Assembly (NCBI GenBank): GCA_965204455.1
Contig: CBDBEO010000001.1
Location: 6,135-70,134, forward strand
From: an uncultured Candidatus Binatia bacterium
GTDB taxonomy: Bacteria; Desulfobacterota; Binatia; Bin18
Direction of reading: 5' to 3'
Length of the DNA stretch: 64,000 nucleotides
Shown here: in pieces, positions 6,497 through 46,332 of the stretch
How positions within the stretch are numbered: position 1 is the first letter of the stretch
Layout: every line of letters begins with the position of its first letter
Translations under genes and position numbers: made by a program
Notes under the pieces: generated by a model
Told to the model about the DNA's origin: nothing
What the model saw: the letters and a program-made list of their open reading frames with translations, nothing else
Databases searched by the model: none

Positions 6497-6501
6497 ACGG
6501 C

Positions 6502-7431: not shown

Positions 7432-7463
7432 GGACTCAGTCCTGTTGAATCAGTTTTGTTGGG

Positions 7464-8738: not shown

Positions 8739-8754
8739 CAGGCTGGGGTCCGGC

Positions 8755-9570: not shown

Positions 9571-9573
9571 CGG

Positions 9574-10236: not shown

Positions 10237-10336
10237 AGCGTTCGTGGTCGGCCCAAAGGCTCGACCACTCTGGAACGCTAGCACAGCCGAAAAAGCAGAG
10301 GAATGCCCTGCGCGCCCCAGCTTGGAACGCTGCCGG

Positions 10337-12127: not shown

Positions 12128-12183
12128 GACTCCTCCTCCATGCCTCTCCACAACGTCCACTCGGCCACACAGTATGGCTGGAC

Positions 12184-13515: not shown

Positions 13516-13532
13516 GGCGTCCTCTTGCGAGT

Positions 13533-20852: not shown

Positions 20853-20952
20853 ACGCCTGCCTCGCCTGTTCACCGCGCCTGGTGGGTGAGTGCTAGAAAG
20901 AGTAAACGTGTCCTCTAATAGATATGAGCTGTCGATACGTTCACTCTTTGTT

Positions 20953-23598
20953 TCAGAATGCGTACGACGCCCTGAAGTAGTAGAAGCCGCCGTTGTAGCC
21001 ATACGGCGAGGCGACCGGGTACTTCTGGCCGGCATCATACGCATCGCGATGCAGCCGTCCGACCTTGGTCGGATAGGTGTCGAGCAGGTTATCCGCACCG
21101 ACCGCCACCGTCATCCCGAAGGCGAACGTGTACGACGCTTCCAGGTCGAGTAAGGCCCGAGCCTTGGGGCGGAGGGAGGGGCTGATGAAATAATCCTGGT
21201 ACGGCTCGGTGAATTGGTCGTAGTAGTGCAGCCGGGCGAGGAGTCGCCACGGGCCCCAGGTGTGGTCCGCCATCAGCGAGAAGCGGAATTCCGGCTCGAT
21301 CTCTTCAACCTGGACTTTGCGCACCGCATCGATGACCTGCGCGTCAATCGAATCCAGATTGAGTTTGGTGTCGTTCCAGTTGCCGGCGAAGGTCAACAGG
21401 GTCGTGCCAAAGCGGTCGCTGAACAGGTCCAGGGGGTAGGTTGCCACCATATCGATGCCCTGGGTGTAGGTCTCGAACGCGTTGGCAAAGAACTTGACGG
21501 TCGTCACGCCCCGATTGTCGACGCCCCGCGCCGCCAGGGCGGCGATATCGTGAGCGGTGATGCTCTGGGGGGCGGTCAGCCCAATCCGGTTTCTGACTTC
21601 TATGTTGTAGTAGTCCAGGGTGACGGACAGCTCGCCGAGGGTCAGTATCGTGCCGATGGAAAAGGAGAAGGAGGTCTCGGGCGTGAGCGGCTTGGCCCCC
21701 TTTTGTTGGGCAATCGGGTCGCTGGCCGGCAGCGTGGGCTGCTCGGTGAGGAGGCCGTGCTCGTCAAGGCCGAAGGTCGTATCCCGGTAGATGACCTGCC
21801 CCACGGTCGGAGCGCGAAAGCCGGTGCCCAGCGAGCCGCGCAGCGCCAGGTAGTCCGCGATCACGTCCCAGCGGCCGGCCAGCTTGCCGTCCAAAGACTC
21901 GCCGACGCCTTCATGGTGCTCGAAGCGGCCGGCGGCGGTGAGCAGGACGCTTTCAATGACATCGGCCTCCAGGTCGAGATACGCACCAAAGCTGTCCCGG
22001 TTGGCCTCCACGGCATTCTCCGGCCGAATGCCGGGATAGGCTTGGCCGCCGATGTCAAACCCCTGGGCCGCGAGACCATGCTCCTTGGCCTGCCCGTCGC
22101 ATTCTCCCTGGTCGTCGATGCACCAGCCGTTTTTCTCGCCGGATTCGATCTCGTACTCTTCCTCGCGGTACTCCAGCCCGAAGGCCACGTTCAGCGGAGA
22201 GTAGAAGAGGCCGGTATCGAACCGCCGGGACAGGTCGAGGTTGAAGGTCTTGTCCCGCTCCTCGTAGGCGCGCCCAAAGTATTCCGTCGGCATCTCCTCT
22301 CTGAGGCGCAGGAGTTGCGGGTTGACGGTGTTCCAGATGAAGTAGGTCGTGCGGTGCTGGCCGAACACGGCGCTCATGTCGTAGTTCCAGCCGTCGAGCA
22401 GCAGGGAGGCGCTGCGCAGTGTCCCGCGCAGGCCGAAAGCGATACTCCAGTCTTCCACATTGCCGCGCATCCGGGGGGTGAAGCCGCCCGGCAGATTCTG
22501 GGCCAGCGCGTAGCAGTTCGGGTTGCCCTGCAACGCGGCCAGCGCGGCCGCGCCGTTTTGCGCAAACTCGCCGCGCGGGATGCTTGGACAGTTGCCGGAG
22601 CGTCCGTCGGGCGACAGGTCGGCGATCAGCACGTTCCCACTATCTTCATAGACCCCGCCTATCGAGGCCGGAGACCCATACTCGGCGGTTGGGGAGCGAA
22701 AATACCACGAGTCCAGGATCTCGCGTTCGGCCCAGTTGCCGAAGGCGTAGGCGTGGTGGTGGTCGCCGAGGTCGAGGCCGAGGTTGCCGAAGAATTTGTA
22801 ATCGTACGGCACGTCGGCCGCGCCCCAGACCATCGCCGGGGATTTGACGGGCAGGCCCGCGCCTCTCAGTGCCTGCTCCGAGTCGAGCGCATAGCTGCGG
22901 TCGGTCGAGTCGGAGTTGACGAACTCGAAGCTGAAATTGGCGAAACCGGCGTCGGTCAGCGGCAGCCCGATGTTGGCCGCCGTGCTCACCGAGTCGCCGT
23001 CGCCCTGGTAGTATTGCCCCCAGCGCGCCTCGATTGAGCCGCCCTCGGGCGCGTCGCGCAGCACGAAGTTCATCACCCCGGCCACCGCGTCCGAGCCGTA
23101 CTGGGCGCCTGCGCCGTCACGCAGCACCTCGACGCGTTTGAGGGCGATGGCCGGGATCGAACGAATGTCGGCGCCGTGCGCCCCCTGGGCCTGGCCGAAG
23201 GTGAAGATGCTGATCGCCGACGAGCGGTGGCGGCGTTTGCCGTTGATCAGCACCAGGGTCGAGTCCGGCGGCAGGCCGCGCAGCTTGGCCGGACGGACCA
23301 GGGTGTTGGCATCGCCGATGGCGTGTTGGGTGATATTGTAGGACGGAATGGTCGCGGCCAGCAGGTTGTTGAGATCCCGCACGCCGTAGTTGCGGAAGCT
23401 GTCGCCGTCGATGATATCGACCGGCACGGGCGAATCTGCGGCCGAGCGGCCAGGCATCCGGGAGCCGACGACTTGCAGCTCGTCGAGTCCGATGACCTCA
23501 TCCTGCGGCTGCGTCTCCTGGGCTCCTGCCGGTGCAAAGCCTCCCACGAGCAGCAGGGCTCCCATCAGACCACCCAACCATCTCCCGAATTGTCTCAT
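20953..23598 (-). CDS. TonB-dependent outer-membrane receptor (paralog 2)
   Basis: 881 aa: MRQFGRWLGGLMGALLLVGGFAPAGAQ..., clearly paralogous to the preceding gene along its full length. The C-terminus is ...ASYAF. Confidence 0.85.
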   Translation of the reverse strand: MRQFGRWLGGLMGALLLVGGFAPAGAQETQPQDEVIGLDELQVVGSRMPGRSAADSPVPVDIIDGDSFRNYGVRDLNNLLAATIPSYNITQHAIGDANTLVRPAKLRGLPPDSTLVLINGKRRHRSSAISIFTFGQAQGAHGADIRSIPAIALKRVEVLRDGAGAQYGSDAVAGVMNFVLRDAPEGGSIEARWGQYYQGDGDSVSTAANIGLPLTDAGFANFSFEFVNSDSTDRSYALDSEQALRGAGLPVKSPAMVWGAADVPYDYKFFGNLGLDLGDHHHAYAFGNWAEREILDSWYFRSPTAEYGSPASIGGVYEDSGNVLIADLSPDGRSGNCPSIPRGEFAQNGAAALAALQGNPNCYALAQNLPGGFTPRMRGNVEDWSIAFGLRGTLRSASLLLDGWNYDMSAVFGQHRTTYFIWNTVNPQLLRLREEMPTEYFGRAYEERDKTFNLDLSRRFDTGLFYSPLNVAFGLEYREEEYEIESGEKNGWCIDDQGECDGQAKEHGLAAQGFDIGGQAYPGIRPENAVEANRDSFGAYLDLEADVIESVLLTAAGRFEHHEGVGESLDGKLAGRWDVIADYLALRGSLGTGFRAPTVGQVIYRDTTFGLDEHGLLTEQPTLPASDPIAQQKGAKPLTPETSFSFSIGTILTLGELSVTLDYYNIEVRNRIGLTAPQSITAHDIAALAARGVDNRGVTTVKFFANAFETYTQGIDMVATYPLDLFSDRFGTTLLTFAGNWNDTKLNLDSIDAQVIDAVRKVQVEEIEPEFRFSLMADHTWGPWRLLARLHYYDQFTEPYQDYFISPSLRPKARALLDLEASYTFAFGMTVAVGADNLLDTYPTKVGRLHRDAYDAGQKYPVASPYGYNGGFYYFRASYAF

Positions 23599-26518: not shown

Positions 26519-27151
26519 GTGGGACGCACGGAAACAGCACAGCGGGTGCTTGGGGTAGACCCCGGGACGCGGCAGACCGGCTGGGGTATTGTTGACCGCC
26601 GAGGCCGGGCTCTCGCTTTTTGTGCCGGCGGGGTGATCTCGACCGCCGGCTTCTCCTCCTTGCCGGAACGGCTGCGGGTGGTGCACGCCGGCATCACCGA
26701 GGTGATTAAGCAATGGACGCCTCACACCCTGAGTCTGGAAAAAGCGTTTGTGGCCTACAATGTCCAGAGCGCGTTTCGGCTCGGCGAAGCGCGGGGTGTG
26801 ATCCTGCTGGCCGCGGCTCAGGCCGGGCTGCACATTGCCGAGTACAATCCGACCGAGATCAAGACTGCGGTGGTCGGTTATGGCCGGGCGGATAAGACCC
26901 AGGTGCAGAAAGCGGTGTTTGCTCTATTGGGCAATGCACGGGCCTTGCCGACCAGCCCGGACGCCACGGATGCCCTGGCCGCAGCGGTGTGCCACTGTCA
27001 TACCTCACCGCTGGCGGCCCAGATTCAGGCCCAGCTGGCCGCGACGCCCTCTGGTCGGCGCAAAAGCGGCCCGCGTTCGTGGCGTCAGGTGTCTATTGAC
27101 AGTCTGGCTCCCGAGCGGGTGGTCGGAGGGCCGCCGCGAGGCCGGGGCTGA
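26519..27151 (+). CDS. ruvC: Crossover junction endodeoxyribonuclease RuvC
   Basis: ...RVLGVDPGTRQTGWGIV...EYNPTEIKTAVVGYGRADKTQVQ... Confidence 0.9.
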   Translation: MGRTETAQRVLGVDPGTRQTGWGIVDRRGRALAFCAGGVISTAGFSSLPERLRVVHAGITEVIKQWTPHTLSLEKAFVAYNVQSAFRLGEARGVILLAAAQAGLHIAEYNPTEIKTAVVGYGRADKTQVQKAVFALLGNARALPTSPDATDALAAAVCHCHTSPLAAQIQAQLAATPSGRRKSGPRSWRQVSIDSLAPERVVGGPPRGRG

Positions 27152-27153
27152 CG

Positions 27154-27744
27154 ATGATTGCGCGTCTGAGCGGCAGAGTCGAAGACAAGGCGCCGGATCA
27201 CCTGATTGTCGATGTCGGGGGGGTGGGCTATCAGGTGTTTGTCTCGCTCCAGACGTTCTATCGCCTGCCCGAGCGAGGCCAGTCGGTCAGCCTGCATATC
27301 CATACCCATGTGCGTGAAGATGTCTTGCAGCTGTTCGGTTTTCTCGATGAGCAGGAAAAGGCCGGGTTTGTGCTGCTCAAGGGGGTGAGCGGGATCGGCC
27401 CCCGACTGGCCGTCAATATCCTGTCCGGCATTCCGGTTGAGGACCTTGAGGACGCCCTGCGCGCCGGTGATGTGACCCGGCTGCTGGCGGTTCCGGGGGT
27501 CGGACGAAGAACGGCCGAGCGTTTGGTCGTCGAGCTGCGGGAAAAGGTCGGGACGCTTCCCGGCAGTGACGGCGCGGCCGTTCCCGGTGCCCAGGTTCCG
27601 GTTTCCACGGATGCGGTGTCGGCCCTGGTCAACCTGGGCTATCGTCAATCTCAGGCCGAAAAGGCGGTCCAGCACGCCCTGCGGGATGGCCGCTCGACGC
27701 TGACCGATATTATCCAGGAGTCGCTACGGAGTCTGAGCGCGTGA
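27154..27744 (+). CDS. ruvA: Holliday junction DNA helicase RuvA
   Basis: [31 protein letters not shown]...[15 protein letters not shown]... Confidence 0.9.
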
Positions 27745-28823
27745 GCGAGCCAAAAGCATCACCCAGAGACCCCGCGCTCGATCTGGACCCGTCGCCGGAA
27801 GACGGTGGGGATGCCGTCGAGAGCGGCGGCGAAGCGCGGCTCGAGGGCTCGCTGCGTCCCCGCAGCCTCGACGACTACATCGGCCAGGAGAGTACCAAAC
27901 AGAACCTGCGCATCGCCATTCAGGCGGCCAAACAACGCGGCGACGTGCTCGACCACCTGCTGTTTTACGGCCCTCCGGGGCTGGGCAAGACCTCAATGGC
28001 CCATATCATTGCCCGAGAAATGGGGGTGGATATTCGGGCCACGACCGGGCCGGTGATTGAACGGCCGGGCGATCTGGCCGCCATCCTGACCAATCTCGAA
28101 GACGGCGATGTGCTGTTCATCGACGAAATTCACCGCCTGAATCGGGTGGTGGAAGAATTCCTGTATCCGGCCATGGAGGATTTTCAGCTTGACCTGGTGG
28201 TCGGCCAGGGCCCCTCGGCCCGCACCGTCAAGCTGTCGCTCAAGCACTTTACCCTGGTCGGCGCGACAACCCGCTCAGGCCTGCTGACCTCACCCCTGCG
28301 CGACCGTTTCGGCTCGACCTTTCGGCTCGACTTTTACCGGGCGGCCGAGCTGGACCAGATTATTCGTCGCTCGGCCGCTATCCTGCACATGACGATTGAC
28401 CCCGACGGGGTGGCCGAGATTGCGCGCCGGTCGCGCGGCACGCCGCGGATTGCCAACCGCCTGCTGCGGCGGGTCCGCGACTTCGCCCAGGTCAAGGCCG
28501 ACTCGGTGGTCAGCCTGGAGGTAGCCCAGGCTGCGCTACAGCTGCTGGAGGTCGACGAGGTCGGTTTTGACAAAATGGACCGGACCGTCCTGCTGACGAT
28601 TATTGACAAGTTTCAGGGCGGCCCGGTCGGGATCGAAACGATCTCGGCGGCCATCGGCGAAGAGAAAAATACGATCGAAGACGTGTATGAGCCGTATCTG
28701 ATCCAGGAGGGCTATCTGCAGCGCACCCCCCGTGGGCGGCTGGCGACCCTGAAAGCCTATACCCATTTTGGCCGGGCCCACAGCGGCGGGACGGACGGCT
28801 CGGGTCAGGACCGGCTGTTCTGA
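27741..28823 (+). CDS. ruvB: Holliday junction DNA helicase RuvB
   Basis: ...[12 protein letters not shown]...[18 protein letters not shown]...LFIDEIHRL... It overlaps the ruvA stop by 4 bp. Confidence 0.95.
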
Positions 28824-28843
28824 ACCCCGCGACCGTCGAGCAG

Positions 28844-31156
28844 GTGAGACCCATGGACACGCGACCGCCGTCCGCTTCCCCGCCCCCAGAGTCTGAGCAG
28901 GCCAAACGCCGGCGGCGCTGGGAAGGCGTGCTGATTCTGATCGCCGCTCTTGGCGTGGGGCTGTTTGCCGTCTTTCAGAGTCCGCTGCCGCAGCTCAGCA
29001 ACACCCACAGTCTGAGCAGCAATATCGTCTTCGTCCTGCTGATCAACCTCAATATCATTCTGCTCGTCCTGCTCGTTTTTCTGGTCGGTCGCAATCTGGT
29101 CAAACTCTTTTACGAGCGGCGGCAGAAGCTGCCGGGCGCGTATTTGCGCTTTCAGCTGGTCCTGGCCTTTGTGGCGATTTCCCTGTTGCCGGCCATTCTG
29201 CTGTTGTTGATCGGCATCGGCTTTGTCAACCGGTCCATCGACAACTGGTTCTCCAGCGAGATCGAAGACTCGCTGGGCGGAGCGCTCAGCGTTGTCGATG
29301 CCTTCTACGACCATTTGGCCGATGAGGCGCTGTTTCACGCCCGTGGCTTGGCCACTGAGATAGCGGCTCAGAGAGCGACCGCCGAGCACGGTCAGGCGCT
29401 GCTGCCCCTGCTTGAGCACACCCGCCAGCGCTTCGAGCTGGGCCGGATTCTGGTCTTTGGTCCCGGGCGGCAGCTGGTGGCGAGCGCCTCGGGGCCGGAC
29501 CGCACGTTTGGTGGGGACGGCAGCGTGGACGCCAAACTGCTCGACCGGGTGTTCCGCACGACCGCCGTCCGCCAGACCTATTTCCTGGGCCAGACCGAGG
29601 TCGTGCGTGGCGGCGTGCCCATCCTGGACCGCGGTGAGGTGGCCGGAGCGGTGGTTGTCGAATACGCGGTGCCACCCCATGTGGCCCACCAGGGCAGCCA
29701 GGTGGCGGACGCCTTCCGCGAGTATCGGCAGCTCAGAATCCTCAAGCAGCCGATGAAGAACAACTATTTGATCACCATGTTTCTGGTCACCCTGGTCGCG
29801 GTCTTTGCTGCGGTGTGGCTGGGGTTCTTTTTGTCCAAGAAGATTGCGGTTCCCCTCCAACAACTGGCTGCGGCAACCCGTGAGGTGGCCCAGGGCCACT
29901 GGACCCATCGGCTCGAAGGAGAAGGCCAGGACGAGGTGGGGACCCTGGTGGCCGCCTTCAACCGGATGACGACCGACTTGCAGCAGAGCCACCACGAGCT
30001 GGAAGCCCGCCGACGCTACATGGAAATCCTGTTGGCCAATATGAACACCGGGGTCGTCTCCCTGGACCGGACCGGCCTGGTTTCGACGGTCAATCGGGCT
30101 GCCGAACACCTGCTCGGGGTAGCGGCCGAGCGGGCCGTTGAGCAAGACTACCATGAGGTGTTCGGGGCGGGCGAGTTCGCCGAACTGCGACGGATGGTCG
30201 GCGCCCTGCTGAGCGAATCGCTCGACCGCCCGAACGCCGGGGACGAGAGCGGACCCAAACACCAGGCTCAGCTGCGCCTGCTGCGCGACGACCACGCCCT
30301 GACCCTGCTGGTGACGGCCGCGCCGCTGACCGATGAGCGTGGGGACGTGTTGGGCGGAGTGTGCTTTTTTGAGGATGTGACGCAGATCATCCGGGTTGAA
30401 CGCATGGAAGCCTGGCGCGAGGTCGCCTACCGGATTGCCCACGAAATCAAAAATCCGCTGACTCCGATTCAGCTCGCCGCTCAGCGCCTGCACCGCCGCT
30501 TTGCGCCGCAGCTGTCCGATCCCCAGGGCGTTTTTGACGAGTGTGTCCAGAGCATTGCCCATGAGGTCGATACGATTAAACGGCTGGTCAACGAGTTTTC
30601 GACCTTTGCCCGCCTGCCGACCGCCGAGTACCGGCCGGAGAACCTGAACGCCCTGATCCAGGAGGTGATTGTCATCTTTTCCGAGGCGCACCGGGACCTG
30701 GAGTTCAGCCTGTCCCACGACCCCGAGCTGCCGCTGTTGGACCTCGACCGTGAGGGCATCAAACGGATGATTCGCAACCTGCTGGACAACGCGGTGGCCG
30801 CCTGCCGGACACCGCTCAACGGCAGTGCCAAGGCGGGTCGGATTGAGGTGGTGACCCGCTTTTTCCGCTCGGTCGGCATCGTCCGGCTCGAGGTGGCTGA
30901 CACCGGCTGCGGTATTCCGGCCGAGATCAAGGATCGCTTGTTCGAGCCCTATTTTTCGACCAAAAAAGACGGCACGGGTCTGGGCTTGGCGATCGTGGCC
31001 ACGGTGGTGGCCGACCATCAGGCGTTTTTGCGCGTGCGGGACAATCTCCCCCACGGCAGTCGCTTTATCATTGAGCTGCCGGTCCGCCGGCGGGAACAGC
31101 TGAGCCCGGACCGGGCCGCACCGCCGCAACCGAGTGCAAACGGCCAGTACAGCTAG
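28844..31156 (+). CDS. Sensor histidine kinase, NtrY-like architecture (N-terminal TM segments, HAMP, PAS, HisKA, HATPase_c)
   Basis: Hydrophobic N-terminus. H-box IAHEIKNPLTPIQLAAQRL. C-terminal HATPase motifs ...DTGCGIPAEIKDRLFEPYFSTKKDGTGLGLAIV... Confidence 0.85.
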   Translation: MRPMDTRPPSASPPPESEQAKRRRRWEGVLILIAALGVGLFAVFQSPLPQLSNTHSLSSNIVFVLLINLNIILLVLLVFLVGRNLVKLFYERRQKLPGAYLRFQLVLAFVAISLLPAILLLLIGIGFVNRSIDNWFSSEIEDSLGGALSVVDAFYDHLADEALFHARGLATEIAAQRATAEHGQALLPLLEHTRQRFELGRILVFGPGRQLVASASGPDRTFGGDGSVDAKLLDRVFRTTAVRQTYFLGQTEVVRGGVPILDRGEVAGAVVVEYAVPPHVAHQGSQVADAFREYRQLRILKQPMKNNYLITMFLVTLVAVFAAVWLGFFLSKKIAVPLQQLAAATREVAQGHWTHRLEGEGQDEVGTLVAAFNRMTTDLQQSHHELEARRRYMEILLANMNTGVVSLDRTGLVSTVNRAAEHLLGVAAERAVEQDYHEVFGAGEFAELRRMVGALLSESLDRPNAGDESGPKHQAQLRLLRDDHALTLLVTAAPLTDERGDVLGGVCFFEDVTQIIRVERMEAWREVAYRIAHEIKNPLTPIQLAAQRLHRRFAPQLSDPQGVFDECVQSIAHEVDTIKRLVNEFSTFARLPTAEYRPENLNALIQEVIVIFSEAHRDLEFSLSHDPELPLLDLDREGIKRMIRNLLDNAVAACRTPLNGSAKAGRIEVVTRFFRSVGIVRLEVADTGCGIPAEIKDRLFEPYFSTKKDGTGLGLAIVATVVADHQAFLRVRDNLPHGSRFIIELPVRRREQLSPDRAAPPQPSANGQYS

Positions 31157-31165
31157 GAGGACGGT

Positions 31166-32449
31166 ATGCAGGAGACCATTCTGGTGGTTGATGACGAGGA
31201 ACAGATTCGGACCACCCTGCGCGGCATCTTGGGCGATGAGGGATTTCAGGTCTTGGACACCGGTGACGGGACCCGGATCCTCGATTTGGTCCGCACCCGT
31301 CAACCCCGGCTGGTCATTCTCGATATCTGGATGCCACAGCTCGACGGGATCAGTCTGCTCGAACAGCTGAAAACGCAGCAGCCGGAGTTGCCGGTCATCG
31401 TCATTTCCGGCCACGGGACGATTGAGACGGCAGTCCGGGCAACCAAGCTGGGGGCGACCGATTTTATTGAAAAACCGTTTTCGCTCGAAGCCCTGCTGCG
31501 CTCGGTGTATCGGGCGATTGGACGTGAGGCGGCTGGCTCTGCGGCCCGAGGAGAATCCCGCGACCTGCCGCCCAGCCGTCAGGCTGCCGTGCGGCCGCGC
31601 GAGTGCGTGCAGGCCCGGACCATCGGGCGCAGTGTCGTGCTGCGCGGTCAGGGTTTGCACTCCGGGGTGCGCACCGGGGTGATCCTCCAGCCGCTGCCGC
31701 CCGGTAGCGGGATTGTGTTCGGCTCTTTATCGACCGATGTCGTCATTCCGGCCTCGGTCGACTATGTCGGCTCGACCGGCTATGCGACAAGTTTGTACCG
31801 GGACGGCGCCGTGGCGCGGACGATTGAGCATCTGATGGCGGCTCTGCACGGCTATGGCATCAGCAATCTGATGGTCAAGATGCAGGATGAGATTCCGATT
31901 CTGGACGGCTCGGCGCGTGAGTTCTGTCAGCTGCTCGACGAAGCCGGCGTCGTCGAGCAGGACGAGACGGTTGAGGTCATTGCGGTTGACCGGCCGTATC
32001 AGGTTGGCGACGGGGAAGGCGGGAAGAGGCTGCGCCTTGAGCCGGCCGACCATTTCTCGGTCCGTTATATTCTCGACTATCCCCCGCCGGTCGGCCGTCA
32101 GGAGCACTGCTATGTCCACCACGGGACCGAGAGCTTTGGCGCCGAAATTGCCCCGGCCCGCACCTTCGGATTTTTGAAAGAGGTCCAGGCCCTGGAACAG
32201 ATGGGCTTGGCCAACGGTGGACGGCTGGACAACTGTATTTTGATCGGCGACCAGGGCGTGATTAACCCCCCGCTGCGTTTTGACGACGAACTCGCCCGCC
32301 ATAAAATCCTGGACTTGATTGGCGACCTGTACCTGTTGGGCCGGCCGCTGCGGGCCAGGGTGACGGCCGACCGGACCGGTCATGGCGATAATATCGCTCT
32401 GGTTCGAGTCCTGCGCGAGGGGCTGGGCCTGCTCCCGACGCTGCACTGA
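31166..32449 (+). CDS. lpxC: Response-regulator receiver domain fused to UDP-3-O-acyl-N-acetylglucosamine deacetylase (REC-LpxC)
   Basis: Residues 1-125 form a CheY-like receiver: ILVVDDEEQIRTTL...LVILDIWMPQLDG...GATDFIEKPF. Residues from about 150 to 427 align along their full length with E. coli LpxC and keep the zinc and catalytic residues: TIEHLMAAL (E78/H79), ARHKILDLIGDL (H238/D242), TGHGDN (H265). Confidence 0.85.
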   Translation: MQETILVVDDEEQIRTTLRGILGDEGFQVLDTGDGTRILDLVRTRQPRLVILDIWMPQLDGISLLEQLKTQQPELPVIVISGHGTIETAVRATKLGATDFIEKPFSLEALLRSVYRAIGREAAGSAARGESRDLPPSRQAAVRPRECVQARTIGRSVVLRGQGLHSGVRTGVILQPLPPGSGIVFGSLSTDVVIPASVDYVGSTGYATSLYRDGAVARTIEHLMAALHGYGISNLMVKMQDEIPILDGSAREFCQLLDEAGVVEQDETVEVIAVDRPYQVGDGEGGKRLRLEPADHFSVRYILDYPPPVGRQEHCYVHHGTESFGAEIAPARTFGFLKEVQALEQMGLANGGRLDNCILIGDQGVINPPLRFDDELARHKILDLIGDLYLLGRPLRARVTADRTGHGDNIALVRVLREGLGLLPTLH

Positions 32450-32485: not shown

Positions 32486-33511
32486 GTGTGTGGAAAACCG
32501 GCTCTGACCGGCTATGATGGAGGCATGCTCAAACGCTGGCTCTACCTCAGCCTCGCTGGCTGGCTCCTTTTTGCGCTCCCTGTCGGACTCGTGGCCGACG
32601 GCTTTGGCCAGAGTCGGCCGTCCTTCAGCCAGATCGTCCGCTACGTCCAGCTCGCCCAGCTCGAACGGGTGACCGACCGTCTGCGCTCGGTCATCCCCAA
32701 CCCGCCTCAGTTTGAACTGCTGGTATTTGACGATCCGTCCATCAACGCCGGGGCCACCTCCGGTCGCGTCATGGTTTCGACCGGCATGCTGAACTTTGTC
32801 CGTTCGGACGACGAGCTGGCCGTGATTGTCGGCCATGAAATTGCCCATCTCAGCCTGGACCACGTGTCGCAGGGCGTCTTCAGGTCCAGCCTGCTCGGGC
32901 TGGCCAGCCTGCTGGTGGACAGCATCTATCCGGGCATAGGCCTGCTGACCGGCCAGGTCGGGCGTCTGTTTTTGAATCACTACAACCAGGACCAGGAGCG
33001 TGAGGCGGACGCGCTCGGTCTGCGCTACGCGTTTGACGCCGGGTATGATCCCCGGGCCGGGGCTGAGGTCATGCGCCGCATGGCTCGTGAGGTGCCGGAA
33101 ACTGCGACGGCCGGATTTTTCTCGTCGCATCCGTCCTCCCCGGAGCGGGCTGCAACGCTGCGTCAACTGGCCGCCCGGCTGACGGCTGGCCGCCCCGGTC
33201 CGGCGCCCGTCGCCCTGTCGCCTCCGTCCCCGCCGGCGCCCCGGTTCGAGCGGGACGAAGACGCCTGCCGCCGGGCGCGGTCGTACTTCTACCGGGCTCT
33301 GGCCGCCCGCTCCCTGCGCCAGAAAGTGCGCCTCTACGACTGGGGCCTGGGTATCTGTCCGCACAGCCCGCGGGCGCGTTTCGAGCTGGCCGAGGTGTAT
33401 ACCCGTCTGGGCCAGACCGAGCGCGCGACCGCCCAACTCCGGGCGGTGCTGCGCTATGACCCGGCCTATCCCGGCGCCCGGCAGCGCTTGCGCAGCTTGC
33501 AGCAGCGCTGA
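32486..33511 (+). CDS. M48 family zinc metallopeptidase (secreted/periplasmic) with a TPR-like C-terminal region
   Basis: Signal peptide, then HExxH in ...VIVGHEIAHLSLDHV..., an M48/Ste24-like context. Confidence 0.75.
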   Translation: MCGKPALTGYDGGMLKRWLYLSLAGWLLFALPVGLVADGFGQSRPSFSQIVRYVQLAQLERVTDRLRSVIPNPPQFELLVFDDPSINAGATSGRVMVSTGMLNFVRSDDELAVIVGHEIAHLSLDHVSQGVFRSSLLGLASLLVDSIYPGIGLLTGQVGRLFLNHYNQDQEREADALGLRYAFDAGYDPRAGAEVMRRMAREVPETATAGFFSSHPSSPERAATLRQLAARLTAGRPGPAPVALSPPSPPAPRFERDEDACRRARSYFYRALAARSLRQKVRLYDWGLGICPHSPRARFELAEVYTRLGQTERATAQLRAVLRYDPAYPGARQRLRSLQQR

Positions 33512-38595: not shown

Positions 38596-39012
38596 TCATG
38601 GGCAGAGATCTTTCTTGAGCAGGTGTTTGTGCCGTTGGGTTTGATAGATATTGCCTCCAACGATTGATTTGAAGTCAGCGTGTAGATCTGTATCACTTGA
38701 GACCAACACGCGGACTCCAGAAACCTGAGCCAGAGCGAGGATGTCCGGGTCGTTCGAGCGTAACTTTGGCAGCCTCTTCTTCTCCTGCTCAACGGCTTCC
38801 ATGGGAAAGTCTTTGAGCTTCCCGGCTCTTCTGTATTGCGTAAACCGATTTCTCACTCTTGGCGATCTCTCTAATTCATCCTTCATTTTGCCCACCGGCG
38901 AATAGACAATTGCTCCGTTCTTGTTGTCTACCCAATCTCTCACAGGCTTCATATCTTCATTGTCGGGAGCGAGAAACAGGCCGTAGTTATCCGTGTCCAG
39001 AATAAGGCACAT
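38596..39012 (-). CDS. PIN-like domain nuclease (putative), inside a low-GC island
   Basis: Starts MCLILDTDNYGLF (the PIN strand-1 Asp motif). Four acidic positions have PIN-like spacing: D6, E45, D96/98 (NDPDILALA) and D117/119 (SSDTDLH). Local GC is about 45-50%. The alternative start at 39036 is non-ATG. Confidence 0.5.
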   Translation of the reverse strand: MCLILDTDNYGLFLAPDNEDMKPVRDWVDNKNGAIVYSPVGKMKDELERSPRVRNRFTQYRRAGKLKDFPMEAVEQEKKRLPKLRSNDPDILALAQVSGVRVLVSSDTDLHADFKSIVGGNIYQTQRHKHLLKKDLCP

Positions 39013-39022
39013 GATTCTGCTC

Positions 39023-40363
39023 TTAACTAAAACCAAGTAATTTATCGGATTCTTTGATAAAGAATTCCCGGTAGCTGGACGGAGCGCCTAACAGATTCGC
39101 CTGTCCGTCAAACATGATGTTGTGAACCTTGACGCCATTGCCTGCTGGCTCCAGGTAGATAAGCGAAACGTCTTCCGGCGATACTCTCTTGTTCATAATC
39201 TCGATACGGGCACGATCAACCATATAGTCGCTATGTGTTTCGATGATAAAATTATGCTTCTTCTGTTTGATCAGATCAATCAGCAAGGACGATAGCTCTG
39301 CTTGTCCTCTAGGGTGTAGGTGAACCTCCGGTTGTTGCATCAAAAACGGCACCCCCGGACGCGAATTTAACATGCGTACCAAAATAGGCAGAAGCTGATT
39401 TACGCCGTAGCCTACATCTATCATATTGACCTTCGGTCCTCTGACTTTGATTTGCAGTTGAAAGGGGTCACCAATGGATTTTCCGAGCCTTCTGACGTGG
39501 ATGTCTGAGAACAACCCAGAAGATTGACCAAATTCAATCAGTCTTTCCTTGAGTGCTTTCCACTCCTTCTCATTCGCCCTGAACATGTTCATGAGCACCA
39601 TAGGGATATCACTACCCTCGGGACTGATGGTTTCCTTCAAAGGGTTATAGGTCCGCTGCGGCTTGGAACGAATGGGTGCGAAGCTGTAAGGTCTTTCTTC
39701 GTACGGTCCATACCGTCTCCCAGATAAGAACTCTGGGAATCTTTCAACAAATTTGTAAAAATTCTCTTCCTCGGAAGACAGGTCCCTCTTCTCCGCCGCT
39801 TCAAACGCCATATAAGTCAAGTTAGACGATACGTTCGTATTCAATCGAGACCGATTTATCCTAACGACAAATTTCCTCAATCCCTCTTCTCCGACGCTCT
39901 CGCTAATTTCAGAGTTAGGGCCAGGAATCCTTTGTCTGTTTGGTTCATCAATCTTCTCTTTACCTTCGATGAAGACCATCTCACCCTCGGGAAGAGTTAC
40001 ACGCTGCTCCTGAACAACAGGCTCAGAACCCTTCTCTTTCTCCGTTAGGGTCAGGATATACTCTGTGCCACCTCTTTTGTTTTCGGAGCTGTACTCAAAG
40101 CCAAATCTGAAGCTTTTCTTTCGGGGGCTGGATTTCCTTACGATATCGGCGAACGTTCCCATTTGATAGGGATCGACGTTAAAATCCAAGTGGGACTCAT
40201 ATGGTGTCGGGCTTGCGAAAGTGTGTAAGGTTTGAAAACAGCCGAGAACGGTGGTTTTTCCGGTGCTATTCTCGCCGACCAGGAAGGTCAGGGGCCGGAT
40301 GTTGAACTCTTGTCTGCCGGCGAAACAACGAACGTCTTCGATTATCAATTTTCGGAGGTTCAC
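39023..40363 (-). CDS. AAA_21/AAA_15-type SMC-like ABC ATPase (OLD/AbiL/GajA-N-like, no nuclease domain), inside a low-GC island
   Basis: Walker A LVGENSTGKTT. C-terminal ...VPFLMQQPEVHLHP... then ...NFIIETHSDYM (H-loop THS). The Walker B position reads QQPE rather than the canonical DEPE. 446 aa. Confidence 0.75.
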   Translation of the reverse strand: MNLRKLIIEDVRCFAGRQEFNIRPLTFLVGENSTGKTTVLGCFQTLHTFASPTPYESHLDFNVDPYQMGTFADIVRKSSPRKKSFRFGFEYSSENKRGGTEYILTLTEKEKGSEPVVQEQRVTLPEGEMVFIEGKEKIDEPNRQRIPGPNSEISESVGEEGLRKFVVRINRSRLNTNVSSNLTYMAFEAAEKRDLSSEEENFYKFVERFPEFLSGRRYGPYEERPYSFAPIRSKPQRTYNPLKETISPEGSDIPMVLMNMFRANEKEWKALKERLIEFGQSSGLFSDIHVRRLGKSIGDPFQLQIKVRGPKVNMIDVGYGVNQLLPILVRMLNSRPGVPFLMQQPEVHLHPRGQAELSSLLIDLIKQKKHNFIIETHSDYMVDRARIEIMNKRVSPEDVSLIYLEPAGNGVKVHNIMFDGQANLLGAPSSYREFFIKESDKLLGFS

Positions 40364-43510: not shown

Positions 43511-45399
43511 TCCGCCCTCGCTCGGGTGTACCGCCACAGCGCGTACAGCCATTCCAGAAACAGCAGGCCTGCGGCGCCGTAGTACAACAGCTGGCCAAAC
43601 TCGACCGGCACGGTACGGCTGACCTCGTGGGGAGCCTGGGAGGTGTCCAGAACGACCGGCGCCGCCTCTGGAGCGGGCTCGGCCTGGGGCTGGCGTCCGA
43701 TGTCCGACTCGAGTTCATCGAACAAATTCGCGTACCACGTGGTCCGGTAGTCGCCGTTTTGCAGCCGATAGGCGCCCACGTGTGGAATATCCACCGCTGC
43801 GGCTTCGAGTGAGCGCGTTTCGCCGCCAGGCAGGGTCAGTTCCAGCGTCTCAAGCGCCACCGAGGTCGGCACAAAGAAGGTTTCGCCGGGCGTGGTCAGG
43901 GCCGGGACGCTGGGGTCTGGCGGCAGCAGCCAGCGCACCGCGTTCAGAAACAGCAGCAGCAGGCTCAGGTTGTCGGAGTCGGTCAGGTTGCCCCGGCCCA
44001 GGTCAAAGGCCAGGCACACCACCCGGTGGCCGTCTTTTTCGCCGGTCAGCGCCAGCGGCACCTCGCCGCCAGCGGTGCGTGACGAGATCAGGACTTGGGC
44101 CCACGACGGCAGGGCCAGCACCCGGGCCTTCTTGAGCGGCAGGGCGTCAACATACTGCAGGTTATGCAGAATCTCGTGGCTCTCGCGCCAGTCCAGAATG
44201 CTGAGATCTTTGGCCTCGGCCACGACCGGAAAGAGCGGATTGTCCAGAGGCGGGAAGACGTACAAACTGTTGGCGGCGACCGCCGTGCCGGGGACGAACT
44301 GGTGGAACACGACGATGTCCTGGGGCTCAAGGCTGAGGGTGGAAAAGTCGTCCGGGCTGACCGCAGTCAGGCTGAGGTTGGGAATCGAGCGGCTGACCCG
44401 TTGCAGCTCGCTGTGCAGGCTGGGGCTGGCCGAGACCAGGACGAGGCGGCGCTCATGACCCTGGGCCACCCAGGCCAGGGCCTGGTTGTCGACCGACAGC
44501 CCGTCGTCGGGACTGATCCGGGCGACCAACTGGCCGGCCTCGCTGAAGTTGCCGATTGAAAAGGACGCGCTCTCGCGGGCCGGCAGGCTGAACGTCCGGC
44601 GGAAGATCTGGCGCTCGTTCAGGTGGACCGTCAGGCTGCCCCGCTTGGTGCGTGCGGCGTAGTTACGGACCAGAATGTAGGCGCGCGCCTGCGAGTAGTG
44701 CTGGAACGGGTTCTGGTACAGGTTGAGGGCGGCCAGGGCGATATTGTCGTCGTTGCGACCGACCCGGTGATAGACCAGATGCGCCAGCTGGGCCTGGGGC
44801 AGGCTGAGCTGGGCCTGGGGCACGTCGGTGAAGACGTGAACGCTGGCCCGCTGGCCGGCCCGGTCGCGCTGGGCCAGGGCCAGCTCAATCCCGAGGTCGA
44901 GGTTGGTCGGGCTGTCCTCGGGCCGCAGCGATTCGAGCAGGTGCAGAAAGACGCGGTGGTCGGTGGTAAAGCCGCTGACCACCCGGGGGCGGGCCGCCAC
45001 GCTGATCAGCATCACCTCGTCGAGCGGTCCGAGGGACCGCACGACCTGGACGGCCTGGGCGCGGGCCAGGCTGAAGCGCTGGGTGGTGCCCTCACGGACC
45101 TGCATGCTGGCCGACACGTCAAAGACCAGAATATGGCGGTTGCCCTGAACCTCGGTGACCGTATGGGGGCGGTAGGGGTGCAGCAGCCCGCTCAGCAGCA
45201 GGCTCAGCAGCAGGGCTTGCAGCAGGAACAGCAGACTCGGCATGAACCGCCGGACGCGGACGCTGTCCTCCCTGATTTCGTTCCAGAACATCAGGCTGGC
45301 CACCTCAACCCGTTTCCGCCAGCGCTCCCGCAGGTAGACCAGGATCAGAATGCCCAGCAGGGCAAACAGCGGCAGGGCGGCTGGATTCAGAATGCCCAT
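43507..45399 (-). CDS. BatA-like aerotolerance-related membrane protein (Bat N-terminal domain plus vWA-like region)
   Basis: MGILNPAALPLFALLGILILVYL is the characteristic BatA N-terminal motif. ...ILVFDVSASM... is a vWA MIDAS-like DxSxS. Confidence 0.7.
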   Translation of the reverse strand: MGILNPAALPLFALLGILILVYLRERWRKRVEVASLMFWNEIREDSVRVRRFMPSLLFLLQALLLSLLLSGLLHPYRPHTVTEVQGNRHILVFDVSASMQVREGTTQRFSLARAQAVQVVRSLGPLDEVMLISVAARPRVVSGFTTDHRVFLHLLESLRPEDSPTNLDLGIELALAQRDRAGQRASVHVFTDVPQAQLSLPQAQLAHLVYHRVGRNDDNIALAALNLYQNPFQHYSQARAYILVRNYAARTKRGSLTVHLNERQIFRRTFSLPARESASFSIGNFSEAGQLVARISPDDGLSVDNQALAWVAQGHERRLVLVSASPSLHSELQRVSRSIPNLSLTAVSPDDFSTLSLEPQDIVVFHQFVPGTAVAANSLYVFPPLDNPLFPVVAEAKDLSILDWRESHEILHNLQYVDALPLKKARVLALPSWAQVLISSRTAGGEVPLALTGEKDGHRVVCLAFDLGRGNLTDSDNLSLLLLFLNAVRWLLPPDPSVPALTTPGETFFVPTSVALETLELTLPGGETRSLEAAAVDIPHVGAYRLQNGDYRTTWYANLFDELESDIGRQPQAEPAPEAAPVVLDTSQAPHEVSRTVPVEFGQLLYYGAAGLLFLEWLYALWRYTRARAE

Positions 45400-45411
45400 G
45401 GCACGCGTGTC

Positions 45412-46320: not shown

Positions 46321-46332
46321 GGTCGGATCGCC

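What the first reader, a model, noticed from the sequence alone, without database searches (positions are those of the whole stretch)
31166..32449. Response-regulator receiver domain fused to a catalytically intact LpxC, immediately downstream of an NtrY-like sensor kinase
LpxC catalyses the committed step of lipid A biosynthesis. It is normally a stand-alone enzyme whose level is set by proteolysis (FtsH), not by phosphorylation. In this window the N-terminal roughly 125 aa form a complete CheY-like receiver, including the DD, D-phospho-acceptor (LVILDIW) and K motifs. The rest aligns along its length with LpxC and keeps all zinc and catalytic ligands (E78/H79, H238/D242, H265 equivalents). 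The gene lies 10 bp downstream of a membrane HAMP-PAS histidine kinase (28844-31156), consistent with a dedicated two-component pair. This implies direct phospho-control of lipid A synthesis, or of a paralogous deacetylase activity, by an envelope or redox signal. If it is the only lpxC in the genome, the arrangement would be a very unusual regulatory solution.
Basis: partly seen in the sequence, partly recalled or inferred. Interest (0 to 1): 0.85.

Follow-up and report, generated by a model that had tools for sequence, protein, structure and literature searches.

The report
Response regulator fused to LpxC enzyme
In this Binatia bacterium the enzyme for the committed step of outer-membrane lipid A synthesis (LpxC) is fused to a phosphorylation-receiver domain and sits next to an NtrY-type sensor kinase; it is the shortest member of a widespread, apparently undescribed NtrX–LpxC fusion family, which suggests direct signal control of lipopolysaccharide synthesis.

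Summary
ORF 31166-32449 (+) encodes a 427-aa protein with a complete receiver (REC) domain, a variable linker of about 29 aa predicted to be disordered, and an LpxC domain. LpxC passes NCBI's lpxC equivalog cut-off and keeps every Zn and catalytic residue. It lies 9 nt downstream of an NtrY-type HAMP-PAS histidine kinase.

It is not an assembly artefact. More than 230 full-length protein clusters share the architecture, both domains are under strong purifying selection (ω about 0.03-0.15), and the order ruvCAB–kinase–REC-LpxC is conserved across Binatia.

The closest LpxC relatives are 650-750-aa proteins from Nitrospinota, Tectomicrobia and Schekmanbacteria. These are complete NtrX-like regulators (REC, AAA+ lacking GAFTGA, Fis HTH) with LpxC fused at the C-terminus, again directly downstream of an NtrY-type kinase. 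Intermediates (REC–HTH–LpxC, and REC–HTH remnant–LpxC) show repeated loss of the transcription-factor modules, and the Binatia protein is the fully reduced form.

NtrYX is reported to repress lpxC transcription in alphaproteobacteria. The fusion family is a physical counterpart of that link, and I found no paper that describes it.

Two points remain unproven: that phosphorylation changes LpxC activity, and that this is the genome's only lpxC.

The parts
28844..31156 (+). NtrY-type sensor histidine kinase (770 aa): N-terminal transmembrane/NtrY_N region, HAMP, PAS, HisKA (H-box AHEIKNPLTPI), HATPase_c. Presumed cognate kinase.
   Evidence: Pfam hits. It aligns over residues 87-757 at 34-37% identity with the kinases directly upstream of the NtrX::LpxC long forms (L083-L086), and at 28-34% with NtrY genes directly upstream of alphaproteobacterial ntrX. 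Adjacency is conserved in L001-L009 and L081.
31155..31160 (+). Shine-Dalgarno AGGAGG overlapping the kinase stop codon, 5 nt before the ATG. This suggests co-transcription and close translational linkage.
   Evidence: Read directly from the sequence.
31166..31516 (+). Receiver (REC) domain, residues 1-117, of NtrX/NtrC type. Phospho-acceptor D53 is the codon at 31322-31324. Acidic pocket D9/D10, S81, F100, K103.
   Evidence: PF00072 at 107.8 bits. Best NCBIfam regulator model is NtrX and best solved relative is the Brucella NtrX receiver 4d6x/5m7n. Site residues are conserved in A1-A3. The AF2 model gives a (beta-alpha)5 fold with pLDDT about 85-94. dN/dS 0.07-0.15.
31517..31603 (+). Inter-domain linker, residues 118-146. 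Variable in sequence and length and predicted disordered. It occupies the place where relatives carry AAA+ and HTH_8 modules.
   Evidence: Alignments A1 and A2. pLDDT below 50 for residues 122-142. dN/dS about 0.4-0.8 in the closer, unsaturated comparisons.
31604..32449 (+). LpxC (UDP-3-O-acyl-GlcNAc deacetylase) domain, residues 147-427, plus the stop codon. E221/H222 are codons 31826-31831, H379/K380 are 32300-32305, D383 is 32312-32314, H406 is 32381-32383. There is no extended C-terminal tail.
   Evidence: PF03331 at 281 bits and TIGR00325 at 237.9 bits against a cut-off of 187.25. Residue-by-residue alignment with P. aeruginosa LpxC. Foldseek target-normalised TM 0.77-0.87 to solved LpxC structures. 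dN/dS 0.03-0.12.
26519..28823 (+). ruvC-ruvA-ruvB, tightly packed upstream; ruvB ends 20 nt before the kinase start. This is conserved context and a possible common transcription unit, not a functional part.
   Evidence: Pfam. The order ruvC-ruvA-ruvB-HK-REC_LpxC is conserved in L001-L009.
32486..33511 (+). Secreted M48 metalloprotease with a TPR tail, distantly BepA/LoiP-like, starting 36 nt downstream. It is adjacent only in close relatives, so it is context and not a core part.
   Evidence: PF01435 and TPR hits. BepA model 62 bits, far below its cut-off of 570. Adjacent in L001-L004 and L081, absent or elsewhere in L005 and L006.

Best explanation
The gene encodes a two-component response regulator whose output module is the lipid A committed-step enzyme LpxC. 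The upstream NtrY-type membrane kinase senses a signal of unknown nature (envelope or redox, judged from the NtrY architecture) and phosphorylates D53 of the receiver. The phosphorylation-induced change on the receiver's alpha4-beta5-alpha5 face then alters LpxC output. The two candidate routes are making or breaking an intramolecular REC-LpxC contact across the flexible linker (CheB-like), or phosphorylation-driven dimerisation. Either way, flux into lipid A and LPS would be set post-translationally. In evolutionary terms the protein is the fully reduced form of an NtrX::LpxC fusion (REC-AAA+-HTH-LpxC) that arose next to ntrY and repeatedly lost its transcription-factor modules. Shown here: the architecture, intact sites in both domains, purifying selection on both, the conserved kinase partnership, and the reduction series. 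Inferred: phosphotransfer, an effect on catalysis and its direction, and that this is the housekeeping LpxC.
For: Both domains score above curated thresholds and all phospho-site and catalytic residues are intact. More than 230 full-length REC-LpxC clusters exist, with about 18 clusters at 50% identity plus about 15 long-form clusters in an exhaustive search. Pfam and NCBIfam identify the long forms as NtrX-like REC + Sigma54_activat + AAA_lid + HTH_8 + LpxC. An NtrY-type kinase is directly upstream in Binatia, in the lineage of P0127 (close relatives are named Nitrospinae), in Tectomicrobia and in Schekmanbacteria. Alignment A2 shows the series long form, then REC-HTH-LpxC (P0129, P0131), then P0382 keeping only the last HTH helix, then the window protein with no remnant. 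In the LpxC tree the fused forms cluster together (63/100). A clade that mixes long and short forms has 100/100 support, so module loss was recurrent. dN/dS is 0.07-0.15 for REC and 0.03-0.12 for LpxC, and mostly about 0.4-0.8 for the linker. AF2 gives pTM 0.84 with a disordered linker; my estimate is that this value needs both domains to be placed confidently relative to each other. NtrYX is reported to control lpxC mRNA and LPS level in R. sphaeroides and C. crescentus (PMC7240162; PMC12444477).
Against: There is no biochemical evidence for phosphotransfer or for any effect of the receiver on deacetylase activity. LpxC is monomeric in the solved structures I know of, so a dimerisation mechanism has no precedent for this enzyme. 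The Bdellovibrionota members have no adjacent kinase. Bootstrap support for monophyly of all fused forms is only moderate (63/100), from a distance tree on a similarity-selected sample. Model coordinates and PAE were not available, so the REC-LpxC interface is unknown. Sole-copy status is not established.
Confidence: 0.65

Rival explanations
1. Accessory paralogue. The fused protein is a second LpxC-like deacetylase, possibly with a different substrate or a conditional role, and a canonical stand-alone lpxC elsewhere in the genome carries out housekeeping lipid A synthesis.
For: Whole genomes could not be scanned. Stand-alone LpxCs exist in neighbouring lineages: NC10, Nitrospirota (Manganitrophaceae) and Acidobacteriota are the closest stand-alone clusters. 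One REC-LpxC cluster is named Methylomirabilota, so both types may occur within one phylum as named by NCBI.
Against: The LpxC domain passes the TIGR00325 equivalog cut-off in short, intermediate and long forms. All catalytic and substrate-contacting residues checked are 96-100% conserved. None of the 10 closest stand-alone clusters is named Binatia, Nitrospinota or Tectomicrobia. No second lpxC lies in the window or within 10 kb in any locus. In Bdellovibrionota the gene sits beside murC-murB-ftsQ-ftsA, a classic lpxC neighbourhood. The only 'stand-alone' member on a long contig inside the clade (P0158) is a frameshift artefact; the other three sit on contigs of about 0.9 kb or unchecked length and are probably truncated gene calls.
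Confidence: 0.15
2. The receiver controls LpxC abundance and not its catalysis. Phosphorylation would gate proteolysis, or hand-off to a protease or adaptor, replacing the FtsH/LapB degron system of enterobacteria.
For: LpxC is classically controlled by regulated proteolysis (PMC12444477). The protein lacks an extended C-terminal tail. Receiver-containing proteolysis adaptors such as RssB exist (my own knowledge), and RssB models appear among the REC hits. A LapA-domain gene lies two genes upstream of the kinase in the long-form loci.
Against: No protease or adaptor gene is consistently linked. AF2's high pTM suggests a defined intramolecular packing, which fits direct allostery or occlusion more simply. 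There is no direct evidence either way.
Confidence: 0.12
3. Relic receiver. The REC domain is an evolutionary leftover of the NtrX fusion with no signalling role, or it serves only as a scaffold.
For: The AAA+ and HTH modules of the ancestor were clearly dispensable and decayed. The Bdellovibrionota members are orphans without an adjacent kinase.
Against: D53, S81, F100 and K103 are invariant, and D9/D10 invariant or nearly so, across phyla. REC dN/dS of 0.07-0.15 is as low as that of the enzyme domain. The kinase gene is retained immediately upstream with a shared ribosome-binding region. REC is the one module that is never lost in complete genes.
Confidence: 0.07
4. Assembly or annotation artefact that joins two separate genes.
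For: None found. One relative (P0158/L087) shows the opposite artefact, a fused gene split by frameshifts.
Against: A single uninterrupted ORF is found in independent assemblies from many samples and phyla.
Confidence: 0.01

Closest known systems
NtrY/NtrX two-component system (Brucella, Rhodobacter sphaeroides, Caulobacter crescentus, Sinorhizobium)
   Same: The kinase has the NtrY architecture (NtrY_N, HAMP, PAS, HisKA, HATPase) and lies directly upstream of the regulator gene. The receiver's best family and structure matches are NtrX. Long-form relatives match the NtrX model end to end and, as I recall for NtrX, lack GAFTGA. There is a functional overlap: NtrYX controls lpxC mRNA and LPS amount in alphaproteobacteria (PMC7240162, PMC12444477).
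   Different: The output here is an enzyme covalently attached to the receiver, not a DNA-binding AAA+/HTH module. The window protein has neither AAA+ nor HTH and scores 136 bits against the NtrX cut-off of 600. The known NtrX effect on lpxC is transcriptional, indirect and part of a large regulon.
CheB (REC-methylesterase) and other receiver-enzyme regulators (PleD/WspR REC-GGDEF, RpfG REC-HD-GYP)
   Same: An N-terminal receiver is joined by a flexible linker to a hydrolytic or enzymatic output domain. CheB gives a plausible mechanism in which the receiver occludes the active site until it is phosphorylated (my own knowledge).
   Different: The catalytic domain is unrelated. The target is a central biosynthetic committed step and not a signalling or second-messenger enzyme. 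No mechanism has been tested.
Canonical stand-alone LpxC regulated by FtsH/LapB(YciM) proteolysis (E. coli), and other lineage-specific schemes reviewed in PMC12444477
   Same: Same enzyme family, fold and catalytic residues. [quoted passage not shown]
   Different: There is an N-terminal receiver and a partner kinase, and no extended C-terminal degron-like tail. The 2025 review of lipid A regulation never uses the words 'receiver' or 'fused'.
Bifunctional LpxC-FabZ fusion (NCBIfam NF009667 / PRK13188)
   Same: It is another natural LpxC fusion protein, and the LpxC part matches that model (206 bits).
   Different: The fusion partner there is a fatty-acid dehydratase at the C-terminus (a metabolic coupling), not a signalling domain at the N-terminus. 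The cut-off of 465 is not met.
Desulfovibrio vulgaris DVU2931/DVU2933/DVU2934 system
   Same: A response regulator of a two-component operon whose single mapped target is lpxC. In Syntrophobacter the lpxC gene lies next to the orthologous operon (PMC3333781). This is another case of two-component control aimed specifically at LpxC.
   Different: Control there is transcriptional and by a separate protein. Any relationship of DVU2934 to NtrX or to the fusion family was not tested.

Membership tests
LpxC (PF03331 / TIGR00325 UDP-3-O-acyl-GlcNAc deacetylase) | Profile score above the curated thresholds | tested here: met
   PF03331 281 bits (cut-off 27); TIGR00325 equivalog 237.9 bits (cut-off 187.25).
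LpxC (PF03331 / TIGR00325 UDP-3-O-acyl-GlcNAc deacetylase) | Zn ligands (E. coli H79, H238, D242) and catalytic or substrate residues (E78, H265, T191, F192, K239, D246) | tested here: met
   H222, H379, D383; E221, H406, T333, F334, K380, D387 align with P. aeruginosa LpxC. They are 96-100% conserved in 92 non-redundant fused sequences. E. coli numbering is from my own knowledge.
LpxC (PF03331 / TIGR00325 UDP-3-O-acyl-GlcNAc deacetylase) | Two-domain LpxC fold | tested here: met
   AF2 model, with most 10-residue blocks of the LpxC part at pLDDT above 80 and low confidence at about 331-370. Foldseek target-normalised TM 0.77-0.87 to A. aeolicus, P. aeruginosa and E. coli LpxC.
LpxC (PF03331 / TIGR00325 UDP-3-O-acyl-GlcNAc deacetylase) | Deacetylase activity on UDP-3-O-acyl-GlcNAc; housekeeping (single-copy) role | not testable with these tools
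   There is no second lpxC in the window or held loci, but whole genomes could not be scanned and no assay is possible.
Response-regulator receiver (PF00072) | Profile match, (beta-alpha)5 fold, and the acidic pocket DD, phospho-acceptor D, S/T, aromatic switch and K | tested here: met
   107.8 bits (cut-off 30.2). D9/D10, D53, S81, F100, K103 are invariant or nearly so. The predicted secondary structure has five strands alternating with five helices.
Response-regulator receiver (PF00072) | Cognate histidine kinase and phosphotransfer | tested here: inconclusive
   A kinase gene lies 9 nt upstream, and the adjacency is conserved in four lineages. Phosphotransfer itself cannot be tested. The Bdellovibrionota members have no adjacent kinase.
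NtrX (NCBIfam NF051870) | Full-length REC + AAA+ + HTH_8 architecture, scoring above the equivalog cut-off | tested here: not met
   136 bits against a cut-off of 600, with only model positions 3-121 (REC) matched. AAA+ and HTH are absent. Long-form relatives match the whole model (361 and 247 bits) but are also below the cut-off. The protein is therefore NtrX-derived and not an NtrX.
NtrY-type sensor kinase | NtrY_N membrane region + HAMP + PAS + HisKA + HATPase_c, encoded directly upstream of an NtrX-type regulator | tested here: met
   All domains were found, with NtrY_N marginal at 23.7 bits against 23.2. 28-34% identity to NtrY upstream of alphaproteobacterial ntrX, and 34-37% over residues 87-757 to the kinases of the long-form loci. 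No NtrY-specific curated model was among the 25 best NCBIfam hits shown.
CheB-like intramolecular inhibition (a mechanism, not a family) | The unphosphorylated receiver packs on and occludes the catalytic site | not testable with these tools

The most novel reading that the evidence does not exclude
In Binatota, Nitrospinota, Tectomicrobia, Schekmanbacteria and some Bdellovibrionota the only LpxC of the cell is itself a response regulator. An NtrY-type kinase would then gate the committed step of LPS synthesis directly by phosphorylation. On this reading, control of LpxC is the ancient core job of the NtrY/NtrX system, and the DNA-binding function of NtrX is secondary and dispensable. This would explain both the repeated loss of AAA+/HTH in the fusions and the puzzling envelope and LPS phenotypes of ntrYX mutants in alphaproteobacteria.
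Probability: 0.35. Interest if true: 0.88.

Novelty: new variant of a known kind. Interest (0 to 1): 0.78.

Why it matters
LpxC is the flux-controlling and generally essential step of lipid A synthesis, and it is a major antibiotic target. According to the 2025 review I read (PMC12444477), its regulation is understood mainly as proteolysis by FtsH/LapB in enterobacteria, is acknowledged to differ elsewhere, and is poorly known outside the proteobacteria. A receiver-LpxC fusion with a dedicated kinase would be a new regulatory principle for LPS synthesis: direct phospho-control of the enzyme.

The full NtrX::LpxC fusions add Rosetta-stone-type evidence that NtrY/NtrX and LpxC are functionally coupled across several phyla. 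That gives a concrete, testable hypothesis for the long-unclear physiological role of NtrYX. The natural reduction series (REC-AAA+-HTH-LpxC, then REC-HTH-LpxC, then REC-LpxC) is also a clean example of how a transcription factor can turn into an enzyme regulator.

Tried and rejected
**A second, canonical lpxC**
- tblastn of the LpxC domain and of four stand-alone LpxCs found nothing further in the window or in the 87 held loci.
The question stays unresolved.
- I considered matching 'longest_contig' sizes between fused and stand-alone hits. I dropped the idea because only the best 120 hits are listed.

**P0158, the one apparently stand-alone LpxC inside the fused clade on a long contig**
- Its contig (L087) has ruvB and the kinase broken into pieces.
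- The REC coding sequence is spread over three frames just upstream.
- I rejected it as a frameshifted assembly.

**Searches that gave nothing useful**
- No unfused ntrY-ntrX-lpxC order (a pre-fusion state) occurs in any alphaproteobacterial or other NtrX locus held.
- The cluster look-ups did not name a cultured organism with the fusion.
- The afdb50 fold search, meant to list UniProt entries with the two-domain architecture, was unavailable. The PDB search only confirmed the LpxC fold.
- The promoter and terminator scan was uninformative.
- Literature probes for REC-LpxC, NtrX+LpxC, LpxC+Binatota, LpxC+Nitrospina+fusion and similar term sets found no description of the fusion. Subscription-only papers are not covered.

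**Other rejected or downgraded ideas**
- The downstream M48-TPR protease as a BepA orthologue functionally tied to the system: the match is weak (62 bits against a cut-off of 570), and the adjacency holds only in close relatives.
- Inter-domain co-evolution analysis (DCA): not attempted, because the family has too few effective sequences.
Full report
**Observation.** The window contains an uninterrupted ORF at 31166..32449 on the + strand (ATG start, 427 aa). An AGGAGG Shine-Dalgarno at 31155-31160 overlaps the stop codon of the preceding gene, and the intergenic spacer is 9 nt. Pfam finds a receiver domain at residues 5-114 (107.8 bits) and an LpxC domain at residues 151-416 (281 bits). NCBIfam's lpxC equivalog model TIGR00325 scores 237.9 bits against a curated cut-off of 187.25, and the best regulator model for the N-terminus is NtrX.

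A residue-level alignment with P. aeruginosa LpxC structures shows that all key residues are kept: E221/H222, T333/F334, H379/K380/D383/D387 and H406. The best solved relative of the receiver is the Brucella NtrX receiver (4d6x, 5m7n). The receiver has D9/D10, the phospho-acceptor D53 (LVILDIW), S81, F100 and K103. The upstream gene (28844..31156) is a 770-aa membrane kinase with NtrY_N (marginal), HAMP, PAS, HisKA and HATPase_c domains.

**Not an artefact.**
- A search of 5.8 billion protein clusters returned 120 listed hits at 64-95% identity. All carry both PF00072 and PF03331, and nearly all cover at least 98% of the query.
- A later search added about 110 more clusters of the same type.
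- The genome collection holds a 98%-identical copy on a 5.2-Mb Candidatus Binatia contig (L001), and further full-length copies in other MAGs, most of them named Binatia (L002-L008).
- Pairwise dN/dS against seven orthologues is 0.07-0.15 for REC and 0.03-0.12 for LpxC. The linker gives about 0.4-0.8 in the closer comparisons; it is short and the values are noisy.
- The window's composition (64% GC) and synteny identify the organism as a member of Binatia (Binatota).

**Surroundings.** The order ruvC-ruvA-ruvB-kinase-REC_LpxC is conserved in all Binatia-type loci, down to 61% kinase identity. The downstream genes are adjacent only in close relatives: a secreted M48-TPR protease that is distantly BepA/LoiP-like, a WLM-like protein, a 157-aa ORF and a CitMHS/TrkA_C transporter. 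The rest of the window encodes two tandem TonB-dependent receptors, which implies an outer membrane, but no other lipid A gene. It contains no second lpxC.

**The wider family (the main new result).** An exhaustive HMMER search of 1.84 billion cluster representatives at 50% identity showed two groups of close relatives.
- About 18 clusters are further REC-LpxC proteins at 35-57% identity.
- About 15 clusters are 650-736-aa proteins whose C-terminal LpxC is 49-56% identical to the window's. That is closer than any stand-alone LpxC, which reach only about 39-47%.

Pfam shows that the second group has REC + Sigma54_activat AAA+ + AAA_lid_14 (± HTH_8) + LpxC. A search seeded with one of them (P0127) found more than 100 such clusters, named by their sources as Nitrospinae/Nitrospinota, Candidatus Tectomicrobia or Schekmanbacteria. 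JGI calls several of them 'NtrX'.

NCBIfam's best regulator model for these long forms is NtrX, matched end to end (361 and 247 bits, below the equivalog cut-off of 600). Their LpxC parts also pass TIGR00325. In alignment they have a Walker A motif (GERGTGK), DG or DD in place of the Walker B DE, and no GAFTGA loop. From my own knowledge, lack of GAFTGA is the NtrX hallmark.

Intermediates also exist:
- P0129 (Nitrospinota, 505 aa) and P0131 (Entotheonellia, 491 aa) are REC-HTH-LpxC.
- P0382 (458 aa) is 79% identical to the long form P0127 in its best local alignment. It keeps only the last HTH helix ('LRQKIKAYDIE').
- The window protein keeps nothing between REC and LpxC except a variable linker of about 29 aa.

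**Kinase partnership.** A kinase of about 750 aa with HAMP, PAS, HisKA and HATPase_c domains lies immediately upstream of the fusion at three further kinds of locus. NtrY_N is also detected in two of them.
- A 3.9-Mb contig carrying P0127, whose close relatives are named Nitrospinae (L083).
- Tectomicrobia (L084, L085).
- Schekmanbacteria (L086).

In L083-L085 the kinase is preceded by a DUF4390 gene. In all three kinds of locus the fusion is followed by purM-purN. The window's kinase aligns with these kinases over residues 87-757 at 34-37% identity. It aligns at 28-34% with the NtrY genes that lie directly upstream of alphaproteobacterial ntrX. The kinase-fusion pair is therefore ancient. Two Bdellovibrionota MAGs carry REC-LpxC (449 and 450 aa, 44-45% identity, all motifs intact) without an adjacent kinase. 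There the gene lies between purA and a Nudix-like gene, followed in L012 by murC-murB-ftsQ-ftsA.

**Phylogeny.** I built a neighbour-joining tree of 117 LpxC domains filtered to below 72% identity. It places all fused forms in one group, apart from 61 of the 65 stand-alone LpxCs. Bootstrap values:
- 63/100 for the fused group.
- 98/100 for the Binatia clade.
- 100/100 for a clade containing both long forms (P0127, P0375, P0378) and short forms (P0400, P0413).

Loss of the AAA+/HTH modules therefore happened more than once. Four 'stand-alone' sequences nest inside the fused group. Two are on contigs of about 0.9 kb and are probably truncated gene calls; the contig of a third (P0213) was not checked. 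The only one on a long contig, P0158, is a frameshift artefact: in L087 the REC coding sequence lies just upstream in frames 1 and 2, and ruvB and the kinase are also fragmented. Caveats: this is a distance method, and the stand-alone sample was selected by similarity to the query.

**Structure.** AlphaFold2 with a 125-sequence family alignment gives mean pLDDT 84 and pTM 0.84. It predicts a (beta-alpha)5 receiver, a disordered linker (residues 122-142, pLDDT below 50) and an LpxC domain. Foldseek matches the model to solved LpxCs with target-normalised TM 0.77-0.87, and no solved structure covers both domains. The LpxC domain is only 66% of the chain, so I infer that a pTM of 0.84 requires a confidently placed receiver. 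The interface could not be inspected. Positions conserved specifically in the fused clade (K238, G171, Y230, C254, L359, I173, L177, V158, T170, H228) lie mostly in LpxC domain I. They are candidates for a coupling surface.

**Literature.**
- In R. sphaeroides, deleting ntrYX raises lpxC mRNA 8.8-fold, and total LPS also rises. No NtrX binding site was found at lpxC (PMC7240162).
- The 2025 review 'The regulation of lipid A biosynthesis' reports the same direction of control in C. crescentus and cites about a two-fold LPS accumulation in the R. sphaeroides mutant. It treats the regulation as non-specific regulon control, and it never uses the words 'receiver' or 'fused' (PMC12444477).
- In D. 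vulgaris a response regulator (DVU2934) has lpxC as its single mapped target (PMC3333781).
- Nine searches with different term sets found no paper describing a REC-LpxC or NtrX-LpxC protein.
- The sequences themselves are public, annotated simply as LpxC or occasionally as NtrX.

**Most likely mechanism.**
- Shown: a complete receiver and a complete LpxC in one polypeptide, both under purifying selection, encoded next to and probably co-transcribed with an NtrY-type kinase. The protein derives from an NtrX::LpxC fusion by loss of the transcription-factor modules.
- Inferred: the kinase phosphorylates D53. The activated receiver changes LpxC output, either through an intramolecular contact across the flexible linker (CheB-like occlusion or release) or through phospho-dependent dimerisation. 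Lipid A flux would then follow the kinase's signal.
- The receiver is the one module never lost in complete genes, while AAA+ and HTH decay repeatedly. This argues that REC-to-LpxC coupling is the selected function.
- The direction of control (activation or inhibition) and the signal are unknown.

Rivals are an accessory paralogue with a canonical lpxC elsewhere (0.15), receiver-gated proteolysis in place of catalytic control (0.12), a relic receiver (0.07) and an artefact (0.01).

**Unresolved.** I could not establish whether this is the only lpxC in the genome. In favour: it passes the equivalog threshold, its catalytic residues are invariant, the clade spans whole phyla, no stand-alone LpxC named from those phyla is among the 10 closest clusters, and in Bdellovibrionota it lies beside a dcw cluster.

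**Verdict.** This is a real, conserved and apparently undescribed variant of two known things: a response regulator with a new enzymatic output, and LpxC with a new mode of control. It comes with a clear evolutionary history and an experimentally grounded link to NtrYX biology. I rate the novelty as a new variant of a known kind, and the interest at 0.78.

Noticed in passing
L083:8001-10133, L084:8001-10103, L086:8001-10193 (and proteins P0122-P0140, P0331-P0444): A large family of 650-750-aa NtrX-like regulators (REC, AAA+ without GAFTGA, AAA-lid, HTH_8) with a C-terminal LpxC domain. It occurs in Nitrospinota, Tectomicrobia and Schekmanbacteria, always directly downstream of an NtrY-type kinase and upstream of purM-purN.
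   Followed up: yes
L083:1916-2314 and 12000-13862; L084:1975-2370 and 12238-13896: In the long-form loci a LapA-domain gene lies two genes upstream of the kinase; LapA/LapB take part in LpxC turnover in E. coli. LolA and RseP genes lie a few genes downstream. This envelope-biogenesis neighbourhood may or may not be meaningful.
   Followed up: no
L087:7585-8879: The only 'stand-alone' LpxC on a long contig inside the fused clade (P0158) is a frameshift artefact of an indel-rich assembly. REC is encoded just upstream in other frames, and ruvB and the kinase are also fragmented. This is a caution for counting domain architectures from metagenome gene calls.
   Followed up: yes
L012:2401-9056 and L011:3358-4710: Bdellovibrionota REC-LpxC genes (449 and 450 aa) have no adjacent kinase. 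They sit between purA and a Nudix-like gene, followed in L012 by murC-murB-ftsQ-ftsA (a dcw cluster).
   Followed up: partly
window 32486-33511 (+): A secreted M48 metalloprotease with a TPR tail starts 36 nt after REC-LpxC. It is only distantly BepA/LoiP-like (62 bits against a cut-off of 570), and the adjacency is kept only in close Binatia relatives.
   Followed up: partly
window 38596-40363 (-): A low-GC island (GC3 about 0.55 against about 0.8 elsewhere) encodes an AAA_15/AAA_21 ATPase that matches the PADLOC defence models NsnB (1e-40), PDC-M55A and AriA, plus a 146-aa partner with no match. The 92%-identical relative L081 has additional content next to the same luciferase-like gene, including a ResIII helicase. 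It looks like a variable defence islet.
   Followed up: partly
window 40841-47403 (-): A MoxR AAA_3 ATPase, a DUF58 protein, a BatA/VWA protein and a large VWA/GATase1-like protein form a Bat/MoxR-vWA type operon.
   Followed up: no
window 18261-23598 (-): Two tandem TonB-dependent receptor genes (945 and 881 aa), evidence that the organism has an outer membrane. The + strand ORFs at 18471-20798 picked by my GC-based gene caller are antisense shadows of the first receptor.
   Followed up: yes
window 28805-31660 (-) and 31727-32446 (-): Long antisense ORFs (951 aa and 239 aa) overlap the kinase and the REC-LpxC gene. Codon-position GC favours the + strand genes, so these are high-GC shadow ORFs.
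   Followed up: partly
window 4907-10284 (-): A tetrapyrrole biosynthesis cluster: glutamyl-tRNA reductase, porphobilinogen deaminase, a fused uroporphyrinogen methyltransferase/HemD, and a sirohaem-synthase-like NAD-binding protein. A LysM-SLT lytic transglycosylase follows at 10337-12160.
   Followed up: no
window residues 156-177, 228-238, 254 and 359 of the 31166-32449 product: Positions conserved specifically in the fused LpxC clade and different in stand-alone LpxC. Examples are K238 (usually E), G171, Y230, C254 and L359. Most lie in LpxC domain I, so they may mark a receiver-coupling surface or may simply be clade signatures.
   Followed up: partly
literature: PMC3333781: In Desulfovibrio vulgaris the response regulator DVU2934 has lpxC as its only mapped target, and in Syntrophobacter the lpxC gene abuts the orthologous operon. 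Whether DVU2934 is related to the NtrX-LpxC lineage was not examined.
   Followed up: no
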